DNA from: Yuukianura sp. NJ FZ-2021
Lineage: Eukaryota
Assembly: GCA_046563655.1 (NCBI GenBank)
Contig: JAJCTO010000011.1
Span: forward strand, 434,001 to 498,000
Reading direction: 5' to 3'
Length of the DNA stretch: 64,000 nt
In this document: piece by piece, positions 4,549 through 15,476 of the stretch
Layout of the letters: the number at the start of each line of letters is the position of its first letter
How positions within the stretch are numbered: the first letter of the stretch is position 1
The notes under the pieces: generated by a model
Told to the model about the DNA's origin: nothing
The model's input: the letters and a program-made list of their open reading frames with translations, nothing else
The model's database searches: none
Made by a program: the position numbers and the translations under genes

Positions 4549-5052
4549 TAAGCCGGAGCGCGGATTAGGCGGATTCAGCGGATTACCGCGCACTTTACGA
4601 GGAAATGGGAATTATTGCGCACTATACTAGGAAAACGCGGATTCCGCGCACTATACAAGGAAAAAACGTAGTAGTACATTAGTGCTTGGGAAAAAACTAT
4701 CTCTTTATTTTGCCGTCCGAAGGTGAACCTACTATTCCGCTGATTCTTCTGACCTCTGATGTGGCAGTACTTTTTGGTTTACGGAAGTGGGAAATGATGG
4801 GATGTCACAAAAATAGCTTACCAATTCTTAGTCTTTCGTTTTTCACCATCGGGAAATGGTAAGAAGTCACCAGCGTAGAAAATACCCCTTTACTACTGTA
4901 TGAAATCTGAGTTAGGCATTAAGTTTTGCCTAGGATGTAGGAAAGTGGGAAACTGTGGGAAATCTCAGAAACGAGTTCCCAGTCTCCAGTTCATCAGCTC
5001 CCACCTTTGGAAAATCCTGAAAAGTCGATTGGGTTAACAGTGCCTTCCTCTT

Positions 5053-5241
5053 TACGTAAATGCTCTAATGCAAGCGCGCGCTTAGAGCAAATTTTCCGAT
5101 TTTGAGACGCGCTTCAATTAGAGTGACAATTTAATACCGTATTACGGTAAATACGGTATTAAATTGTCACTCTAATTGAAGCGCGTGTCAAAATCGGAAA
5201 ATTTCCTATAAGCGCGCGCCTGCATTAGAGCATTTACGGTA
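5053..5241. repeat. Near-perfect ~190-bp palindrome, probable Tc1/mariner(pogo)-type foldback MITE
   Basis: CGTAAATGCTCTAATGCA..GAGTGACAATTTAATACCGTATT is mirrored by AATACGGTATTAAATTGTCACTC..TGCATTAGAGCATTTACGG; TA at both ends. Confidence 0.7.
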
Positions 5242-6926
5242 AGCTTAAAATAAAAAATAACTTTAAACTTTTGAAAAATTTCGAAATTAAAAACATTTCC
5301 AGGATTTCCAATAAAAAAAAAGATCCAGAATTTATACCACCAAAACTTTTTTTTGTCTAAAAACAAAAGCATTTTCTAGAAAAAAAAACGCATAAAAGCA
5401 ACTTACTGAAACTTTTTTTTTCTAAAAATTTATCCAAATGTACGAAAAAGTTTTGATTATTTTAAGAAAACTGGCTGCGTGTGGTAGAAAATATGTTGAA
5501 CTCTTGGAAAAAATGAAAGAGTAAAAAAAACTCCTTCTGTTTTTCAAGTCCCTTCAATTTTTTTTCCTGAACTTTTCATTTTTGAAATTGAAGCCTTAAT
5601 TTGGCACGCAAGGGAGAAGGGCCCTTTGAAAATATTTTCGACTTCTGTCTGTGATGATTTTGAAGAGTGGCCACTCGACTGAAAGAATCTGTTGAACATT
5701 TCCAAGAACTTTTAGAGCGAAGAGGGCCATTGAAGGGGTCATTTGAGCAATTGACCCAGAAATTAAAAATTCAAACCGTTTGCTTCTGCTACCAAAACAC
5801 TTTTCTTACGCACGCAAATGCTTCAAAAATTCTCAAAACCCGAATTTTGAAAATTCTGGAGAAAAAGAAATTAAACAGTGCTGTTATGCCTTCCAATTCC
5901 ATGTTTTGTACCTAGAACCTGGTAGCTCAATGGTTAGAGCTCTTTCAGAATTATGGGTTCGCGTCCTACTATGTTGGTAATTTTTTCTCCACTGTGATTC
6001 CTTGTTTCTCAAGACATTTGAGCCATGAACTTCACATATAGTACATAATTGTAATCTCTTTGAAATTATTCTAACCACGAGGTTAGGGTTTTTTTTTTTT
6101 TAAATTTTTTTACGTTGTGTGAACTATTTGCATGTTGCACATTTTCCCAAATTCCTTCAATTATGTCTTTGGCAATCCAGTTATCCAGTTTTTTGATTGA
6201 TTCCGGACTGAGTTCTTCTTTCCATGAGTCTACTTTTCCTTTTCGAATGAAACCTGTTAATGGGTTGCCATGGACTTTTGCCAGCGGTTCATACGTGTGT
6301 TCTTTGTTCACTGTACAATTTTTTTTTCATTGAGTCGAAGCTCAGGTGCTCAACAAGTTTGTCAATTTGAGCATCCGTTTAACATTTTCCAAAAAATGAA
6401 GCTGTTTTCCTTACGACTGTCGGCAAATCCTTAAAATATGAACAGTTCAACTTTTTTACATAAATTTAGTTTGAAAAAACCTTGCCATATAGTTCATTTT
6501 AATTGTTTACTTTTTTCATTTCTTCGTAAGTTAGAAACAGAATGTTGGATTCGTTACGGCGGGGCCAGAAATCGCGGAGGTAAGGCCAATACGGCAAATG
6601 CAACCCTGAAAAAAAATTCATATTTGAAAAATTTCATATTCAGCATTTGAAAAAGTGAGCGAAACTGGGACCACTGCATGGCAACAATGTAGAATTTTTT
6701 TGCTTTTACCGTAATCAGCTAAATATTCTTCAATAAACTCATCTATGGTCCCCTCCCGGTGTTTTATTTTAGGCCGAATTCATGTCTAGTGAACTCTCTC
6801 TCCTCAAACTAGACATAGCGTGTGTAGATTGGTTCCTGTCGGTTGACCTGTGCCTAAACATTTGGACACGATGTGGGTCTCCTACTATTTTTCAGACTCC
6901 AGTAGACATGAATTCGACACAGAAAA

Positions 6927-7486
6927 TATGAGGCTTGAGCAGTGCCTCTCTGCACTGCTCCAGCCTCACAATGAAATAAACAAAAACAAACCCAAAACCG
7001 ATGATCTTTGTGGCTACGATTTATTTTAAATCGTAGCGAACGAAACAAACAAACCCTAACTAAATACAAAGGAGCCCTTGTGGCTAAACTAACGGGCCTT
7101 AAGGGCCATAACCAACCGAAATGCGGATCCGGGGGAAGGGAGGCCAATCACTGGCCACAACAAGCCAATCACTGGCTACGGCCAATCACTGGCCACCACA
7201 AGCCAATCACTGGCTAGGCCAATCACTGGCCACACGCTGATCTGACCTGGTTGACCTCCAGTTGACCGGGGAAGCAGACTTGTGGCTGGACGGAGCAAGG
7301 CAGAGCTGTTGACGGCGTGGCTGCTGCATGAGAAGTGCTGCTGGGTTCTTCTGTCGGCTCTGCCGACTCCAAAAGGAGAGGGAGACAGGGGACAAACACT
7401 TATGGGCATTCGCCCTAACTAACTAATTTAGTTTTAATTAATCTAAACACTTAAACTAACTCTCCTATGAGGCCCTTGACCTCATA
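6927..7486 (-). repeat. 3' LTR of Gypsy element
   Basis: TATGAGG...CCTCATA; no differences seen by eye from 13882-14441. Confidence 0.95.
7142..7232. promoter_or_regulatory. Five tandem GCCAATCACTGGC (CCAAT-box) repeats in the LTR; second copy at 14097-14187
   Basis: Direct reading; matches the RRCCAATCA NF-Y-type consensus. Confidence 0.6.
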
Positions 7487-7822: not shown

Positions 7823-8413
7823 TTAAGGCTGTCGAGCATAACGGGGATTGAATTTCTTGTTGGTCTTGAATCTGTTCTGTCTTCGGACAGTACAGGTTCC
7901 CGCAAAATGGCCGTATTGGCGGCAACGAAAACAACGAGGTGCCGGCTGCGCTGGAGGCGGAGGAGGAGGCGGCGGAGGAGCCCTTGGAGGTAATGGAGGA
8001 GGAGGAGGCGGAGGTGGCGGTGGCGGTGGAGCCCTTGGCGGTTCTGGAGGAGGAACTGGACGACTCTGGACTGTCACTACAAGGTCTGGAAGTGCTTCCG
8101 GTGACGGAGGAGAAGGAGATCGTGGGCGACTCCAAAAATAAATGCTCGGGGCATACTTCTCGCGCAGAACCGAGTCCAAATGCATGAGTTTGCTCGTCGT
8201 GAGTCCAGTTTTATGCCAATTCGTAGGAATAGCAAGGAGGATAGCGGGATTTAAGTTCCGTTTCGCGTAATGAACGATTTCTTTGTCCGAAGGCTGACGA
8301 TTCAGTAGGCTTTTCAACTTCGCAATCAGTCGGAGCAGGAAATCCTTAACTTTTTCGCCTTCCCATTGAGGAAAATTTAATTTTTCTTTGACTGAACGTT
8401 GTTGAGAAGCCAT
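7823..8413 (-). CDS. Gypsy ORF3: Gag-like protein (capsid-CTD-like segment, polyproline tract, CCHC zinc knuckle)
   Basis: 196 aa; QWEGEKVKDFLLRL (MHR-like), long Pro runs, CFRCRQYGHFAGTC and a basic tail. Pyrimidine tract plus CAG ends 1 nt before the ATG. Confidence 0.8.
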   Translation of the reverse strand: MASQQRSVKEKLNFPQWEGEKVKDFLLRLIAKLKSLLNRQPSDKEIVHYAKRNLNPAILLAIPTNWHKTGLTTSKLMHLDSVLREKYAPSIYFWSRPRSPSPPSPEALPDLVVTVQSRPVPPPEPPRAPPPPPPPPPPPPLPPRAPPPPPPPPPAQPAPRCFRCRQYGHFAGTCTVRRQNRFKTNKKFNPRYARQP

Positions 8414-8441
8414 ACTGAAAACAACAGAAAAGAAACGAAAA

Positions 8442-11400
8442 TCAGTGAACTGTATTACGACTACGCAAATTGTAATTGCTAACGATAGGCTCAGGCTTAG
8501 TTTTTGGGACTTTAGAAGGCGGTACAGGCGCTGAAATGATCGCTGAAGGTCTCGAAAAGTATCGTTTCAGGTTTACGATGTTATGACGACCTGCCGATTC
8601 GTCGGAATCGCAGAAACTCAGGCCGTAAACTAAGTCAGTGACCTTTTCAGAAATCATATAAGGGCCTTCCCACTTAAACGCAAATTTCTTCATGTAACCC
8701 CTGGCCTTGTCCGACTTCTCGTGAGTACGCAAAAGTACCAAATCGCCAAGTTGAAACGCATCTGAACGACGATGCTTATTATAATGTTTTGCTTGCGACG
8801 CTTGAGCTTTTTCTAAATTCTCTCGCGCTAAACGGTAAACTTTGGAAAGACGCTCGATCAAGGTGAGTTGATACTGCGTCCACTCAGCAAAATCGTCGTT
8901 TTCAGAGGCGTCAAGTGCAAGATCAAAGGGAGTTGACAATTCGCGACCAAAATTAAGCATGGAAGGGCTAAAACCCGTAGAATCAGAAATTGCGGTGCGT
9001 AGAGCCATGGCAACCTCCGGAAGATTTTCGTCCCACTTCGAGTGCTTACGCGCGACATAGGCGCGAAGAATAGCGATGACATTACGATTTACGCGCTCCG
9101 TGATATTTGCTTGCGGATGATAAGTCGAAGTGTACTTTAATTTGACGTTCCATGTTTTGCAAAGCTTTTTGAAAAGATCGGAAGTGAATTGGGAACCGTT
9201 ATCGCTTAATAAGGCTCTGGGACGTCCGAAACGGCAAAAAATTTCCTGCTCGACTTTTTTAATGATCAGAGAAGTGGTAGCTTCTCTGATTGGGAATAAC
9301 TCAACCCATTTAGTAAAATGATCAGTGACCACAAGCAAGAAAGTATTTTGACGCTGTGTTTTTGTAAGGGGCCCAACTAAATCCAATGCGAGCATGTCCC
9401 AAGGACCTCGAGTCTGAACACTTTGCAATTCACCAACCGGTTTGGAAGTAGGATTCTTAGTACGCTGACAAATGTCGCAAGACTGAACAAACTTATAAAT
9501 GTCTTCGTGCATACCGAACCAAAAGACGCGCCTTAAGAGACGATAGAGCGTTTTGCGAAAACCCATGTGACCTGACTCTGGTCTATCATGAAAATAGCTC
9601 AAAACCTGAGAACGTAAAGAACTTGGAATGAAAGGGAGCTTTCCAGCGTACTTTCCTAAGCGATAAAGGACCCCGTCGTGCACTACGAAGTCTTTACCAA
9701 TGTCCGTTAGCAGCGCTTGGACTTCTAAGTCTTTACTTTGCTCTTCTTTGAGCTGATCCAATGAAATTTCGCTTGTAAGTGAAAGAAAAATGGCGGGTGA
9801 AGAACAATTTAATGGAAAATTAAGTTTTTCTCTGTGATCTTCACAATCCTCGCTTTCTCCCACGGGAGCTCTTGACAGTGCGTCTGCGACAACGTTAAGT
9901 TTACCGGGACAATGCGTTATAATGGGCTGAAAGTCCTGAATCCTAAGTGCCCACCGTGTAAACTTACTGTTGACGTCTTTCATTTTGTCTAACCAAACCA
10001 AAGCTTTATTGTCAGTCTCAAGGCGAAAACGTTGACCGTCAATGTAATGTTCAAATTTCTTTAACGCAAACAAAATGCCAACACACTCAATTTCGCTTGA
10101 ACCGTAATTTTTCTCAGCGTTATTCAAAGAGCGACTCGCAAAAGCAATGGGACGTTCAAAACCGTTAACCTCCTGTGCTAAAACCGCGGATACTCCGATT
10201 CGTGACGCGTCCGTCCGAATAATAAATTCGTTAGAGAAATCCGGGAAAGCCAAAACCAAATTATCCGAACAAATAGCTGCTCTGAGCTTTAAAAAGGCAG
10301 ACTCCTGCTCATCTGACCAAACAAAAGAAACATCCTTGTGCAATAAACGGTTCAAGGGCTCACTCAGCTCCGAAAACCTGTCGACAAACTGCCGATACCA
10401 TGAACAAAGACCAAGAAATTGACGTACTTGTTTAGGCGTCGTCGGCCTGGGAAACTCCGAAACAGCAGAAATCTTTTCCGGATCTCTCTCAATTCCATTT
10501 GGAGAGACAATGTAACCTAAGTACTTAAGAGTAGTTTTGCCAAACTCGCATTTTTGCATATTTACAGTGAGCCCGGCAGAACTCAATCTCTCAAAAACGT
10601 ATTTGAGATGCTCTAGATGTTCTTTCCAAGAACTTGAATAGACGATGATGTCGTCTATGTAACCGTCAGCAAAGCGACCTCGCGCTGTACCCAAAATTTT
10701 ATTTACAAGACGTTGAAAAAGAGAAGGGGCTGACTTTAAACCAAAAGGCATCCGAGTAAACTGAAACTTTCCTTCATGACAAATGAAGGCAGTGTACTTG
10801 GCACTGTTTGGGTCCATGGCGACTTGCCAGTAGCCCTTTTTCAAATCAATAACCGAAAGAAACTTAGCTTGACCTAAGTTGTGAAAAAGGTAATCTAATC
10901 TAGGAATAGGAAACGGATCATGAGGAAGGCGAGCATTTACTTTTCGCAAATCTAAAGTAAACCTCCATGACTGACCTTTGTCTTTGGTATGCATATATAC
11001 AGGGGAAGCCCACTCAGAATCAGAAGGTTCAATGACTCCCAGTTTCAACATTTCCGAAATGTTGTCTGAAATGAGTTGGCGTTTGAAAGGACTCACAGGA
11101 TAGGGTTTTGAGGAAATGGGAGGTCCGGGAGACGGTGTCAACTCACACTTGACCCAATCAGTTTGGCCTAACTGAGAGGAGAAAAGTGATGGGAAACTAT
11201 CGGTCAAGCTCTTAAGTTCCTGAGTTTGCGTGTCACTGAGGCCAAGCAGTGCACACAAATACTCACGGTTTTGAAAATCGTACTCAAGTCGACCTCTTGT
11301 TTTAGTTCCGAGAATAGAAAAAGTACCGTCATGAAAATCTGGGACCAAATGGTAATTCCGAATAAAGTCAAGTCCGAGAATAATAGGAAACGGCGGAGAC

Positions 11401-11792
11401 TGGAGCACATGGACTGTTTGAATGTATTCGTCCGTATAAATTTTGAAATGTAGCTCACAAGTTCCGGAAGTACTGATTGTACTGGAGTCACCGATCGTTA
11501 ATTGAATTTGCCCTTGCTTAATCACCAAACCGAGTTGTTTAGCCAAAGAAGCAGAAATAATCGAATAAGTAGACAATGAATCTAAATGGGCAGAATGAAT
11601 GGAATGTCTGATTTTTAATTTAATGGTGGGAGCTGCTTTTGAAAAATCCGATTTTGGAAGGCTAGGGAACTCCCGTCCTACCTTCCTTGTAGGTTTGGCG
11701 GATTTGGAACTCTCTGTGGAAGAGAATAGACAGTAACTTCTACTCCCTTCATGCATAGCTCCACAAAAATAATGTGAGCGATGATGTTCCAC
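8442..11792 (-). CDS. pol: Gypsy Pol polyprotein (protease, RT, RNase H, integrase)
   Basis: LDSLSTYSII (protease site), ILGLDF, DLKKGYWQV, MPFGLKSAP, YIDDII, TDASRIGVSAVLAQ, H..GHMG..CDIC, LDLVGP / SDNGSQF / TERVNR (DDE) and WEGPY. Uninterrupted frame. Confidence 0.97.
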   Translation of the reverse strand: MEHHRSHYFCGAMHEGSRSYCLFSSTESSKSAKPTRKVGREFPSLPKSDFSKAAPTIKLKIRHSIHSAHLDSLSTYSIISASLAKQLGLVIKQGQIQLTIGDSSTISTSGTCELHFKIYTDEYIQTVHVLQSPPFPIILGLDFIRNYHLVPDFHDGTFSILGTKTRGRLEYDFQNREYLCALLGLSDTQTQELKSLTDSFPSLFSSQLGQTDWVKCELTPSPGPPISSKPYPVSPFKRQLISDNISEMLKLGVIEPSDSEWASPVYMHTKDKGQSWRFTLDLRKVNARLPHDPFPIPRLDYLFHNLGQAKFLSVIDLKKGYWQVAMDPNSAKYTAFICHEGKFQFTRMPFGLKSAPSLFQRLVNKILGTARGRFADGYIDDIIVYSSSWKEHLEHLKYVFERLSSAGLTVNMQKCEFGKTTLKYLGYIVSPNGIERDPEKISAVSEFPRPTTPKQVRQFLGLCSWYRQFVDRFSELSEPLNRLLHKDVSFVWSDEQESAFLKLRAAICSDNLVLAFPDFSNEFIIRTDASRIGVSAVLAQEVNGFERPIAFASRSLNNAEKNYGSSEIECVGILFALKKFEHYIDGQRFRLETDNKALVWLDKMKDVNSKFTRWALRIQDFQPIITHCPGKLNVVADALSRAPVGESEDCEDHREKLNFPLNCSSPAIFLSLTSEISLDQLKEEQSKDLEVQALLTDIGKDFVVHDGVLYRLGKYAGKLPFIPSSLRSQVLSYFHDRPESGHMGFRKTLYRLLRRVFWFGMHEDIYKFVQSCDICQRTKNPTSKPVGELQSVQTRGPWDMLALDLVGPLTKTQRQNTFLLVVTDHFTKWVELFPIREATTSLIIKKVEQEIFCRFGRPRALLSDNGSQFTSDLFKKLCKTWNVKLKYTSTYHPQANITERVNRNVIAILRAYVARKHSKWDENLPEVAMALRTAISDSTGFSPSMLNFGRELSTPFDLALDASENDDFAEWTQYQLTLIERLSKVYRLARENLEKAQASQAKHYNKHRRSDAFQLGDLVLLRTHEKSDKARGYMKKFAFKWEGPYMISEKVTDLVYGLSFCDSDESAGRHNIVNLKRYFSRPSAIISAPVPPSKVPKTKPEPIVSNYNLRSRNTVH

Positions 11793-12181
11793 CTTCCACG
11801 AGACAAACCCACACCAATTTCCGGCATGTGAACAGCGGCTCCAGTCTCAAGAGCGCGTTTACAAACTGTCCGAAGCGCTACATGCAGAGCGTCATAATCA
11901 ATGGGGACTGGTTCCTTGGGATGTCCCTGGGCCACCATATTTGCAACTTCAAGATTTTGAGAAACCGGAATGAATTGAACAAAACCTTTTTGAATTGGAG
12001 CTTGGAGTTTCTTGTACTCTAACTCTGGAGCTTTAAATGCTTTGGAAAGAGAAAGAACAAAACCTTTTCCCCAAAAACCTTGATCATTGCAAATATGAGC
12101 CAAAATACCGCGCTTGGAATTTAAATTTGGTTGAGTAGCGTCACCGATAACGTACTGAATTTTAGTTTGTTTTGGAATCAT
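11678..12181 (-). CDS. Macrodomain protein (ALC1/TARG1/SCO6735-like class; putative ADP-ribosylhydrolase); reading frame stays open upstream to 12412
   Basis: IQYVIGDATQP..ILAHICNDQGFWGKGFVLSLS..VANMVAQ..IDYDAL..AVHMPEIGVGLSRGRW..GVEVTVY: complete macrodomain motif set. ATG at 12181 in GCCATG context. Confidence 0.88.
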   Translation of the reverse strand: MIPKQTKIQYVIGDATQPNLNSKRGILAHICNDQGFWGKGFVLSLSKAFKAPELEYKKLQAPIQKGFVQFIPVSQNLEVANMVAQGHPKEPVPIDYDALHVALRTVCKRALETGAAVHMPEIGVGLSRGRWNIIAHIIFVELCMKGVEVTVYSLPQRVPNPPNLQGR

Positions 12182-12266
12182 GGCAGAAAAAACTGGATCC
12201 GAATTGGGAGAATTAAATGAAGACGGAAGAGCGACCTTCTCCTCTGAGTCACTCCTCCTTAACCTT

Positions 12267-13490
12267 TTAGGGCACCCCCAGAATTTTCTGGGCGGGAAAT
12301 TTACAGGTAGTTGCATAGTGCCCATAACGTTCACATCGAAAGCACTGGACTTGATCAATCGACCACTCTTTTGCCGGAGGCGGTTGACCAGAACTGCTAG
12401 GTCTAGGCCCATTCGTATAAGGAGGCCGACTTGTCCCAGGATTTGCAGGTGGGACTGAACTAGGCCCAGCAGGACGAGGCTGTGAATAGGAATTTGGAAC
12501 GTAAGGAGCTTTAGCCGGTTGCCGTGCGCCTGCTCTGTCCCTAAGTCTTTGATTGAATTCCGAAAAATCGTCAGAAGCTTGAGAACGAATCAAAGGTTTG
12601 TTTTCAAAACGTCGAGTTCGATTCAAATCGCATACAATTCTCTTCCCATGAGCAATGAGTTCAGCAATGTTAGTAGCTGGAGAAGATCTGAGCAAAATAG
12701 AAATTTCAGGAAGACAAGCGTTTACAATTCGTTCTCTAATCGTTTCACTCGAAGCGTCTGGGACTATTCGTTTATAAGAATTGGCAACGTCCCATGCAAA
12801 AGTTTCGAAAGCCTCCGAAAAGAATTGCTTTTTAGCGAAAAGATCCGACAAAAGTTTATCTTTGGATTGACCAATCCCCTCATAATTTAGAAAAGCGACT
12901 TTAAATTCATCCCATGTCGCGATGTTGTTTTGAATGTCTAGCCACCAACGCAAAATATCCGAATCTCTCGGAAACATTCGGCTAATTAGAACAAGTTTTG
13001 ACTCTTCGTTTAAGTTTTTAAGAACAAAATAATCTTCTGCTTCTTTGAAAAAGGAAGTAATAGGAATTCTTGGCGTATATTTGGGAATAGGAATCACAGG
13101 TGCCTGTTCTACGTATAGCACTTGTGGAACGGTAGGCGGCTGTACGTTAGGAGCGGGTGCGGTAACCGGAGCGGGCGCGGCCGGAGCGGGCGCGGCGACA
13201 ATTTGCAACTGTGCACGCATATCATCCATGGCTGTCTGCATTGTGAGTAATTGTGCACGTAAACTGGCAATCTCCGCGTCTTTCGCATCGTTAGTCGCCA
13301 TGTTTGCAAATGAATCTAAAAACTCTTCCTCCGATTCTGTTTCCGATTTAGGAGTAGCGGGAGAAACCGTTAAAACAAATGGGGGTGCGCTGCTTGCACG
13401 CACGGGTGTGAGCGGTCTGAGCGCGGGCGGAGCGGGCGCCTCCGTTTGAGAATTCGTTAATTCCTTACTTTTACTACGAGTGAGGACCAT
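12267..13490 (-). CDS. gag: Gypsy Gag
   Basis: MVLTRSKS.., coiled coil, retrotrans_gag-like WWLDIQNNIATWDEFKVAFL..KQFFSEAFETF, C-terminal CFRCERYGHYATTC. Confidence 0.92.
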   Translation of the reverse strand: MVLTRSKSKELTNSQTEAPAPPALRPLTPVRASSAPPFVLTVSPATPKSETESEEEFLDSFANMATNDAKDAEIASLRAQLLTMQTAMDDMRAQLQIVAAPAPAAPAPVTAPAPNVQPPTVPQVLYVEQAPVIPIPKYTPRIPITSFFKEAEDYFVLKNLNEESKLVLISRMFPRDSDILRWWLDIQNNIATWDEFKVAFLNYEGIGQSKDKLLSDLFAKKQFFSEAFETFAWDVANSYKRIVPDASSETIRERIVNACLPEISILLRSSPATNIAELIAHGKRIVCDLNRTRRFENKPLIRSQASDDFSEFNQRLRDRAGARQPAKAPYVPNSYSQPRPAGPSSVPPANPGTSRPPYTNGPRPSSSGQPPPAKEWSIDQVQCFRCERYGHYATTCKFPAQKILGVP

Positions 13491-13869
13491 GAAACAACCA
13501 AAAAGAAACGAAAAACACAAACGTAGGAATTAAGATTTAATTAGGAATCATGAATTACGCATTTAAACTTTTGTACATTCAGTTAATAACTTACTTTCTG
13601 AAAAATGAAAAGTGAAATCGGAAAATTTAAGTTGGGGTGCGGAACGCGCTCAAAAGAAAAATTGAAACCAAAAATGTGACTTTAACACATACGCGCAAAA
13701 CCGTACCGTTTCATACGGTTCATGTACAAAAGGATGGGGACCATGCCTTTACCACCCCCAGAGCGGCACCTCAACCGATTTTTCTCCGAATTTAACGATG
13801 AATCGATGATTAATCACTGATTAATCATCGATACCCATGAAAACAATGACTGAAGGGGCAGTTAATGCT

Positions 13870-13879: not shown

Positions 13880-13881
13880 GA

Positions 13882-14441
13882 TATGAGGCTTGAGCAGTGC
13901 CTCTCTGCACTGCTCCAGCCTCACAATGAAATAAACAAAAACAAACCCAAAACCGATGATCTTTGTGGCTACGATTTATTTTAAATCGTAGCGAACGAAA
14001 CAAACAAACCCTAACTAAATACAAAGGAGCCCTTGTGGCTAAACTAACGGGCCTTAAGGGCCATAACCAACCGAAATGCGGATCCGGGGGAAGGGAGGCC
14101 AATCACTGGCCACAACAAGCCAATCACTGGCTACGGCCAATCACTGGCCACCACAAGCCAATCACTGGCTAGGCCAATCACTGGCCACACGCTGATCTGA
14201 CCTGGTTGACCTCCAGTTGACCGGGGAAGCAGACTTGTGGCTGGACGGAGCAAGGCAGAGCTGTTGACGGCGTGGCTGCTGCATGAGAAGTGCTGCTGGG
14301 TTCTTCTGTCGGCTCTGCCGACTCCAAAAGGAGAGGGAGACAGGGGACAAACACTTATGGGCATTCGCCCTAACTAACTAATTTAGTTTTAATTAATCTA
14401 AACACTTAAACTAACTCTCCTATGAGGCCCTTGACCTCATA
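13882..14441 (-). repeat. 5' LTR of Gypsy element
   Basis: Copy of 6927-7486, adjacent to the PBS. Confidence 0.95.
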
Positions 14442-15069: not shown

Positions 15070-15476
15070 CTGGTTGGATTATACCCATGTGGGTGCATGT
15101 TAAAAACTGAGAAAAATTTCGAGAAAAGAATGACCTATGACCTATGGCAACCCAAAAAATGACCTCTACAAAAGTTGTTGGGCTTGACGAGGGGATCATT
15201 GTTTGTCCTCTGACATATGACCTTGTGACCTTCCGTTGAGGTCATAGGTAAATTTGAAAGTTAGTTAGGTTGGGTTATGTTTAACCTTCAAATTGACCTA
15301 TGACCTCAACGGAAGGTCACAGGGTCATGTGTCAGAGGATAAAAAATGATCCCCCCCATCAAGCCCAACAATTTTCGTAGAGGTCATTTTTTGGGGTGTC
15401 TGGAGATGTCATTGACCGTTTTCTCGGAATTTTTCCTAGTTTTTAACATGCGCATACATGGGTATAATCCAACCAG
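15070..15476. mobile_element. Foldback MITE (whole element is an imperfect palindrome, rich in TGACCT/AGGTCA)
   Basis: CTGGTTGGATTATACCCATGT..ACATGGGTATAATCCAACCAG; arms ~190 bp; TTTT on both flanks. Confidence 0.75.

What the first reader, a model, noticed from the sequence alone, without database searches (positions are those of the whole stretch)
7823..8440. Second Gag-like ORF in the env position, apparently expressed from a spliced RNA
Seen: downstream of integrase is a 196-aa ORF with an MHR/capsid-CTD-like segment, a long polyproline spacer and a CCHC knuckle (CFRCRQYGHFAGTC) very like that of gag (CFRCERYGHYATTC). It has no signal peptide or TM segment, so it is not env. A pyrimidine tract plus CAG ends at 8415, and a consensus donor AAA|GTAAGT lies in the leader at 13594-13589, the geometry of env subgenomic splicing. 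Inference: a truncated Gag that could co-assemble with capsids (copy-number control or interference, analogous to Ty1 p22 or Fv1) or chaperone RNA.
Basis: partly seen in the sequence, partly recalled or inferred. Interest (0 to 1): 0.8.

Follow-up and report, generated by a model that had tools for sequence, protein, structure and literature searches.

The report
Capsid-fragment third gene in retrotransposon
A gypsy-type jumping gene in an animal genome carries, where retroviruses keep their envelope gene, a small conserved gene for half a capsid domain tied to an RNA-gripping zinc knuckle; it looks like a real accessory gene, but its RNA and its job are untested.

Summary
The ORF is real (196 aa, 8413-7823) and sits after integrase in a young Ty3/gypsy element with identical LTRs. 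Its first 90 residues model as a capsid C-terminal domain (top 32 VIA-align rows are capsid proteins; Arc C-lobe by profile, E 7.5e-4), followed by polyproline, one CCHC knuckle and a basic tail. It is intact in 5 of 11 family copies, under purifying selection (dN/dS about 0.1-0.2), and has a homologue in a metagenome element with macrodomain and pol, where it is laid out as two in-frame exons. The other 6 copies lost it, in two lineages, each time together with the Gag knuckle and macrodomain. No RNA evidence was obtainable. The domain shows no sequence likeness to the element's own Gag, which weakens a p22-like reading; a dimeric RNA-binding accessory protein fits better. The scan noted knuckle-bearing third ORFs in other families of this genome; none of the notes shown mentions a capsid domain.

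The parts
13882..14441 (-). 5' LTR (560 nt), identical to the 3' LTR; followed by a primer-binding site
   Evidence: exact 561-nt block 13881-14441 = 6926-7486; flanks and 4-bp target duplication
13701..13709 (-). Candidate leader splice donor ACG|GTACGG (first intron base 13706); best conserved leader candidate
   Evidence: exact in 5 of 5 ORF3-bearing 5' halves, GTACGG in 4 of 6 ORF3-less ones; moderate score 2.23 bits; may be part of a conserved leader RNA element instead
13589..13597 (-).
   Evidence: 1 of 11 5' halves
12267..13490 (-). gag: complete two-lobed Arc/Ty3-like CA, one CCHC knuckle (12344-12303)
   Evidence: model pLDDT 83, Foldseek Arc capsid E 9.4e-4
11678..12265 (-). Macrodomain ORF (SCO6735/BT1257/TARG1-like) between gag and protease, in its own frame
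   Evidence: phmmer to PDB 2afc, 2fg1, 5e3b E 1e-29 to 1e-31
11655..11700 (-). N CCA AAC, 6-nt spacer and hairpin at the macro stop (-1 frameshift geometry); the hairpin's 5' arm is also a candidate donor AAG|GTAGGA (first intron base 11681) whose phase matches ORF3
   Evidence: 14-nt motif exact in 11 of 11 copies; local hairpin -13.9 to -15.2 kcal/mol in 10 of 10 tested, not dominant in a 91-nt fold (z -0.65)
8442..11846 (-). pol: protease, RT, RNase H, integrase (Ty3/gypsy order)
   Evidence: Pfam
8415..8445 (-). Splice-acceptor-like site: branch-point-like YTRAY word built on the pol stop codon, pyrimidine tract, AG
   Evidence: present in 11 of 11 copies, tract 19-27 nt
8144..8386 (-). 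ORF3 residues 10-90: CA-CTD-like helical domain starting at an MHR-like motif
7940..8128 (-). ORF3 linker: conserved FW..P.P...PD..VTVQ motif, then polyproline (36 Pro in 63 residues) of variable length
7823..7939 (-). ORF3 CCHC knuckle (7933-7892) and basic tail (11 K/R, no D/E in 38 residues), stop 7823
6927..7486 (-). 3' LTR, preceded by a purine-rich tract

Best explanation
ORF3 is an old, selected accessory gene of one clade of macrodomain-carrying Ty3/gypsy elements. It is made from its own ATG on a subgenomic RNA spliced into the acceptor after pol (donor unresolved; the leader site at 13706 is the best candidate). The protein is a cut-down Gag: a capsid C-terminal domain without the N-terminal lobe, a proline spacer, one knuckle and a basic tail. 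Most likely the CTD pairs with itself, as retroelement CTDs do, giving a two-armed RNA-binding protein that acts in trans on the element's unspliced RNA (export, protection or chaperoning), as CERV does for Cer1. Shown: ORF, fold (predicted), selection, distribution, acceptor conservation. Inferred: transcript, donor, self-dimer, RNA target, function.
For: Fold: model residues 10-90 pLDDT about 75-83; 32 top VIA-align rows of 48,161 chains are retroelement capsid proteins, aligned where ranges show it on the C-terminal domain (best Z 7.9, rmsd 3.5, 87 aligned; first unrelated row Z 4.6); Foldseek ranks Arc C-lobe and Ty1 CTDs first though none reaches E 0.001; profile with the distant homologue hits Arc C-lobe at E 7.5e-4. 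Selection: dN/dS 0.13-0.22 for window comparisons at dS 0.19-1.8, like gag 0.17 and macro 0.15. Homologue in L061 (pol 60% identical): hhalign 95.6%, E 1.2e-8, 100 columns, 25.3 bits against at most 9.7 for 500 shuffles; there the gene has its own ATG after pol, a 107-nt GT-AG intron with matching phase, and no in-frame Met before the MHR without the splice, so it is a stand-alone protein. ATG one base behind the AG in both lineages. Acceptors also precede third ORFs of 8 more distant elements printed, three of which (L053-L055) end in a knuckle, so RNA binding is the recurring theme. CTD unalignable to own Gag, which fits self-pairing. Dispensable in cis: 6 of 11 copies lack it yet keep pol under selection (dN/dS 0.04 among L024/L028/L029), as expected of a factor that works in trans.
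Against: No transcript or protein evidence. No donor is both strong and free of another explanation. Z under 8 for a small helical domain can be a common arrangement (tool note); the two best profile hits are designed helical repeats. dS between lineages is near saturation, so those ratios are rough. Self-dimer and RNA target were not tested. The joint loss of ORF3 with the Gag knuckle and macrodomain is not explained by an export role alone. CERV has no capsid domain, so the analogy is functional only. Only one homologue outside this genome was found, among 36 metagenome loci with at least 700 nt after the integrase match.
Confidence: 0.42

Rival explanations
1. p22/Drt2-like capsid modulator: the lone CTD joins the element's own Gag lattice through CTD-CTD contacts and blocks or tunes assembly, with the knuckle bringing it to the same RNA as Gag.
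For: Same architecture as Ty1 p22 (CTD plus nucleic-acid-binding tail, no NTD); Ty1 CTD structures rank 4-5 in Foldseek; ORF3 is lost exactly where Gag loses its knuckle, as if both compete for one RNA signal; low copy number (11).
Against: p18m and Drt2m are specific to a Gag over 90% identical and do not cross-restrict (PMC13709905 passages); ORF3 CTD and own Gag CA give hhalign probability 0.1%. ORF3-less copies (6) are no more numerous than ORF3-bearing ones (5) by any margin. A separate gene that only harms its carrier should be lost quickly, yet it is kept across elements 60% identical in pol.
Confidence: 0.2
2. Alternative last exon: splicing from the donor on the macro stop codon (11681) removes all of pol and joins the macro frame to ORF3, giving a minor Gag-macro-CTD-knuckle protein that is built into particles; in ORF3-less copies the same splice yields a Gag-only RNA.
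For: Donor motif exact in 11 of 11 copies, second-best score in the element; its phase matches the single base between AG and ATG in both lineages; the acceptor survives in all 6 ORF3-less copies, and in the three pairwise alignments made the deletion starts directly behind the AG, which a leader donor would not explain; Cer1 joins gag exons to a post-pol exon (PMC10309623 passages).
Against: The motif is also the stem of a hairpin in -1 frameshift geometry and codes in the pol frame, so its conservation has another cause; phase agreement is a 1 in 3 chance; the ORF3 ATG is conserved, which a fusion does not need; L061 has no such donor at its macro stop and starts ORF3 from its own ATG; no strong donor at the gag stop in 11 of 14 distant loci, weaker ones past the stop in L053 and L054.
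Confidence: 0.17
3. Detachable nucleocapsid adaptor supplied in trans: ORF3 links RNA to capsids, and lets the knuckle-less, ORF3-less sister lineages package their RNA with help from ORF3-bearing copies.
For: Both pol lineages hold both forms; the 6 ORF3-less copies have no CCHC motif in gag yet have 94.9-99.8% identical LTR pairs and selected pol.
Against: Knuckle-less Gag is known in autonomous elements (Vesta1b, PMC5408684 passage; Ty1, recalled). Needs heterotypic binding for which there is no sequence support.
Confidence: 0.1
4. Interference factor against other elements: the captured foreign CTD poisons the capsids of a competing retrotransposon or virus.
For: The CTD is foreign to its own Gag; the genome holds over 100 other RT-bearing loci (119 matches); HERV-K Gag and Fv1 act on other viruses (passages).
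Against: No Gag among 1,712 ORFs from the window and fetched loci resembles it; the best Gag hits of the wider profile are weak (E 0.002-0.01); strong purifying, not diversifying, signal.
Confidence: 0.08
5. Non-functional remnant of a nested or recombined gag.
For: Absent from 6 of 11 copies; no expression data.
Against: Open frame in 5 of 5 copies that carry it, with in-frame indels only; dN/dS far below 1; conserved homologue in L061.
Confidence: 0.03

Closest known systems
Ty1 p22/p18 (Saccharomyces; PMC8458377 passages, PMC13709905 passages)
   Same: Element-encoded protein made of CA-CTD plus a nucleic-acid-binding C-terminal part, no NTD, from a subgenomic RNA; related fold.
   Different: [quoted passage not shown]
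Drt2 (host-domesticated Ty1' CA-CTD; PMC13709905 passages, PMC10951436 listing only)
   Same: Separate gene for a lone CA-CTD under purifying selection.
   Different: Drt2 is a host locus 91.5% identical to its target; ORF3 travels inside the element and is highly diverged from its Gag.
CERV of Cer1 (C. elegans gypsy element; PMC10309623 passages)
   Same: [quoted passage not shown]
   Different: CERV's post-pol half has no homology outside Caenorhabditis and is fused to gag exons; no capsid CTD or knuckle is described for it in the passages read; ORF3's role is untested.
Non-env ORF3s of bdelloid Juno/Vesta elements (PMC5408684 passages)
   Same: Family-specific captured third ORFs, gained and lost along the tree.
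   Different: Those are DEDDy exonuclease, GDSL lipase, coiled-coil or TM proteins; no Gag-derived ORF3 appears in the passages read.
Arc / dArc C-lobe and Ty3-type CA-CTD
   Same: Closest sequence and fold match of residues 6-75.
   Different: Arc proteins are host genes with both capsid lobes and form capsids; ORF3 has one lobe and should not form a shell alone (inference).
Errantivirus env (gypsy, ZAM; recalled)
   Same: Position after pol behind a splice acceptor.
   Different: No signal peptide, TM segment or F-protein similarity.

Membership tests
Ty3/gypsy LTR retrotransposon (Metaviridae) | Two LTRs, PBS, PPT, target duplication | tested here: met
   termini read TA...TA, not TG...CA
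Ty3/gypsy LTR retrotransposon (Metaviridae) | pol order PR-RT-RNase H-IN | tested here: met
   Pfam
Envelope gene | Signal peptide and transmembrane anchor, fusion-protein similarity | tested here: not met
   highest 19-residue hydropathy 0.56; no env family in Pfam
Retroelement CA-CTD | MHR-like start and four-to-five-helix CTD fold | tested here: met
   predicted model; moderate Z (7.9) but 32 consecutive capsid rows
Complete Gag | CA-NTD plus CA-CTD | tested here: not met
   helical domain starts at residue 10 with the MHR-like motif; no room for an NTD in any of 5 copies
NC-type zinc knuckle | CX2CX4HX4C with basic flank | tested here: met
   5 of 5 copies; Pfam zf-CCHC below cut-off, E 0.017; retroviral NC hits E 0.002; spacing is varied in L061
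p22/Drt2-type restriction factor | CTD identical or nearly identical to the target Gag CTD | tested here: not met
   no similarity to own Gag CA
p22/Drt2-type restriction factor | Binds Gag and lowers assembly or mobility | not testable with these tools
   needs bench work
Env-type spliced subgenomic RNA | Conserved acceptor after pol | tested here: met
   11 of 11 copies
Env-type spliced subgenomic RNA | Conserved donor in the leader | tested here: inconclusive
   13594 consensus in 1 of 11; 13706 in 5 of 5 ORF3-bearing halves but of moderate score
Env-type spliced subgenomic RNA | Junction seen in RNA | not testable with these tools
   no run was available to lay on the element
CERV/Rev-like export protein | Needed for export of unspliced genomic RNA; nuclear shuttling | not testable with these tools
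   basic tail is compatible with a nuclear signal but untested

The most novel reading that the evidence does not exclude
A clade of gypsy elements carries a second, anciently diverged capsid-domain gene as a dedicated trans-acting module (CTD plus knuckle) that controls or supplies RNA-capsid coupling for the whole family, and whose presence lets knuckle-less, macro-less, ORF3-less sister lineages arise repeatedly as partial cheaters: a two-Gag system with helper and dependent forms inside one retrotransposon family.
Probability: 0.2. Interest if true: 0.85.

Novelty: new variant of a known kind. Interest (0 to 1): 0.64.

Why it matters
Third ORFs of LTR elements are usually assumed to be env. 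This one is a capsid fragment with a knuckle, kept by selection across elements only 60% identical in pol. Lone CA-CTD proteins are known as yeast restriction factors (p22, Drt2), cut from or nearly identical to their target Gag; a separate, diverged CTD gene inside an animal element was not found in the ten literature searches run here. It would show a capsid domain reused by the element itself as a regulatory or RNA-handling module. The family also offers a natural experiment: two lineages each split into a full form and a form that lost ORF3, Gag knuckle and macrodomain together while staying mobile.

Tried and rejected
RNA: no RNA holder was listed for the element, so no reads could be laid; this says nothing about expression. 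Complex prediction of Gag CTD with ORF3 CTD gave no answer (score 0.00, alignments not used); neither support nor evidence against. Homologue searches with ORF3 itself: none at E 0.01 among 13 and 55 candidates; two hits in the 1.84-billion library were unrelated bacterial repeat proteins; no confirmed locus in metagenome or viral contigs with the CTD alignment, nor with the Gag alignment in viral or prokaryote contigs. These collections are mostly prokaryotic; the homologue was found only through integrase. ESM Atlas gave leads only (0.91-0.93, retrotransposon gag and caulimovirus coat clusters, few shared features). No spliced, pol-less retrocopy among 16 matches to the window LTR; the other lineage's LTR was not searched. 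Donor at 13468 rejected: lost in the sister copy. Donor at 9967 inside RNase H is kept in 5 of 5 ORF3-bearing copies but lies in conserved coding sequence; left open. Recent duplication of own gag or knuckle conversion rejected. Gag-like ORFs 'after' integrase in L083, L084, L091 are followed by or repeat a pol start and were set aside as tandem or permuted assemblies. L059 (integrase 66%) has a donor after pol but no recognisable ORF3; L060 ends at the pol stop. Literature: ten searches showed no paper on a second Gag or CTD gene after pol in titles and abstracts listed; subscription papers, Repbase entries and supplements were not seen and could hold such a description.

Full report
Observation. 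The window holds a 7.5-kb LTR element on the minus strand with identical LTRs (13882-14441 and 6927-7486) and a 4-bp target duplication. In order: gag (13490-12267, one CCHC knuckle), a macrodomain ORF in another frame (PDB 2afc, 2fg1, 5e3b at E 1e-29 to 1e-31), pol with PR-RT-RNase H-IN, and a 196-aa ORF3 from ATG 8413 to 7823, starting 28 nt after the pol stop. ORF3 has no hydrophobic segment. The host is an unnamed 98.7-Mb animal assembly; the only named relatives of its Gag are from the springtail Orchesella dallaii (2 of 13 hits).

What ORF3 is. Pfam gives only sub-threshold hits: Arc C-lobe on 7-57 (E 0.045) and zf-CCHC (E 0.017). An AlphaFold2 model from five copies is moderately confident over the helical part (blocks 21-80 at pLDDT 73-83). 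VIA-align against 48,161 chains puts retroelement capsid proteins in the first 32 rows (copia, MLV, dArc, PEG10, RSV, Arc; best Z 7.9, rmsd 3.5 A, 87 residues; first unrelated row Z 4.6; the Arc and Ty3 N-lobes score only 4.3 and 3.8). Foldseek ranks Arc C-lobe first and Ty1 CTDs fourth and fifth, none at E 0.001. A profile that includes the distant homologue finds the Arc C-lobe by sequence at E 7.5e-4, behind two designed repeat proteins. So ORF3 is CA-CTD, then a conserved short motif and a polyproline spacer of variable length, then a knuckle and a basic tail; there is no N-terminal lobe. The element's own Gag has both lobes, and its CA cannot be aligned to ORF3 (BLASTP; hhalign 0.1%). The knuckles agree at 10 of 14 residues but at only 4 of 14 third codon positions. 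ORF3 is therefore not a recent copy of this gag; it is an old duplicate or a capture.

Conservation. An RT search finds 11 copies at 92% identity or more among 119 matches. Five carry an intact ORF3 (window, L023, L025, L026, L027; 93% and 69-70% identity to the window). Nei-Gojobori dN/dS is 0.22 for window against L023 (dS 0.19), 0.13-0.16 against the other lineage (dS about 1.8, near saturation) and 0.10-0.19 within that lineage; controls are 0.17 for gag, 0.15 for macro, 0.03-0.07 for pol. The other six copies lack ORF3 and also lack the Gag knuckle and macrodomain. A pol tree of 8 of the 11 copies (L027, L038, L039 left out) needs two changes, with starred support: each of two lineages has a full and a reduced form; remnants of the CTD helices in L024 and L029 show loss, not absence from the start. 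Two events are few, and the shuffle test is not significant (141 of 500), so the coupling is a lead. Outside this genome, an integrase scan gave 61 metagenome loci; of 36 with at least 700 nt downstream, one, L061 (pol 60% identical, with macrodomain), has a homologous ORF3 (hhalign 95.6%, E 1.2e-8; 25.3 bits against at most 9.7 in 500 shuffles; survey). The closer L059 has none that I could recognise.

How it is expressed. The acceptor is conserved in 11 of 11 copies, with the pol stop codon inside a YTRAY branch-point-like word, and similar acceptors precede third ORFs in eight more distant elements. In L061 the gene has an ATG 58 nt after the pol stop, a 107-nt GT-AG intron with matching phase, and no in-frame Met ahead of the MHR otherwise: good indirect evidence that this gene is spliced and stands alone. 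The donor in the window family is open. ACG|GTACGG at 13706 is exact in 5 of 5 ORF3-bearing halves and kept in 4 of 6 others. Prompted by an earlier scan note (e1-7499290), I found AAG|GTAGGA on the macro stop codon, exact in 11 of 11 copies and in phase with ORF3 in both lineages; it would also explain why ORF3-less copies keep the acceptor, with deletions starting right behind the AG in the three pairs aligned. But the same bases form a hairpin 6 nt behind N CCA AAC, the layout of a -1 frameshift signal (not dominant in a longer fold), and L061 lacks the site. No RNA could be examined.

How it most likely works. Shown: a selected gene for CTD plus knuckle. Inferred: CTDs of retroelement capsids dimerise (PMC8458377, passages), so a diverged lone CTD most simply pairs with itself and presents two knuckles and basic tails on proline arms, a multivalent binder for the element's RNA. 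A trans-acting role on unspliced RNA, like CERV of Cer1 (PMC10309623, abstract and passages), fits its loss in cis from mobile sister lineages and the recurrence of knuckle-tipped third ORFs in this genome. I put this at 0.42. The p22-like reading (0.2) has the right architecture, but p22 and Drt2 need a near-identical CTD surface and do not cross-restrict (PMC13709905, passages). The fused Gag-macro-ORF3 product (0.17), a detachable NC adaptor serving knuckle-less copies (0.1), interference with other elements (0.08) and a dead remnant (0.03) follow.

Comparison and novelty. The element is an ordinary member of Ty3/gypsy by LTRs and pol order. ORF3 is not env, not a full Gag, and fails the identity test for p22/Drt2-type factors, though it may work like one. 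Non-env third ORFs are known (Cer1; bdelloid Juno and Vesta, PMC5408684 passages; sORF2, bioRxiv 2025.03.14.642691 passages), and spliced Gag-only RNAs are known in plant copia elements (PMC5580714, abstract). Ten searches listed no report of a capsid-domain gene after pol; the library lacks most subscription papers and I read no supplements. Verdict: new variant of a known kind, interest 0.64; real and conserved, with transcript and function unproven.

Noticed in passing
window 11678-12265 (-): Macrodomain of the SCO6735/BT1257/TARG1 type between gag and protease, dN/dS 0.15; also in L061 and fused in one frame to Gag in P0004. Noted before by the scan (e1-7470572).
   Followed up: partly
window 12250-12310 (-): The macro frame lies +1 to gag here, at a CCC UAA stop, whereas it lies -1 behind a C CCA AAA heptamer and hairpin in L057, L025 and L040; L027 differs too. 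Either this copy is defective or it shifts differently. The full forms seem to need two frameshifts to reach pol.
   Followed up: partly
L024, L028, L029, L032, L038, L039: Six copies whose Gag has no zinc knuckle and no macrodomain, yet with near-identical LTR pairs and pol under purifying selection; decayed ORF3 remnants are still visible in L024 and L029.
   Followed up: yes
window about 11590-11570 (-); L061 about 545-570: The protease active-site motif reads D-S-L, not D-S/T-G, in the window, in the family copies printed and in L061.
   Followed up: no
window 14441 and 6927; G000 C1 copy: LTR termini read TA...TA (TATG...CATA) with 4-bp target duplications in both copies examined.
   Followed up: no
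L041-L047, L049-L055: More distant gypsy families of this genome (pol about 33% identical) mostly carry other third ORFs behind textbook acceptors: 200-420-aa Pro/Ser-rich disordered proteins, or acidic-then-basic proteins with one CCHC knuckle and a short intron after pol; none matches the CTD profile.
   Followed up: partly
L024, L026, L027, L032; window 36500 onward: Four family copies sit inside tandem satellite arrays; the window holds a 147/162-nt satellite array of about 150 units from 36.5 kb.
   Followed up: no
L026, L058, L040 (G000 C5 268-281 kb): One element appears as two complementary halves in swapped order (pol 474-1132 with ORF3, then LTR-gag-macro-pol to 472), perhaps a rearranged or circle-derived insertion.
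   Followed up: no
window 14100-14190 and 7140-7235 (-): Five tandem copies of a word containing ATTGG (reverse CCAAT box) in the LTR, a likely promoter module.
   Followed up: no
window 5050-5243 and 15070-15476: Long inverted repeats on both sides of the element, probably small DNA transposons.
   Followed up: no
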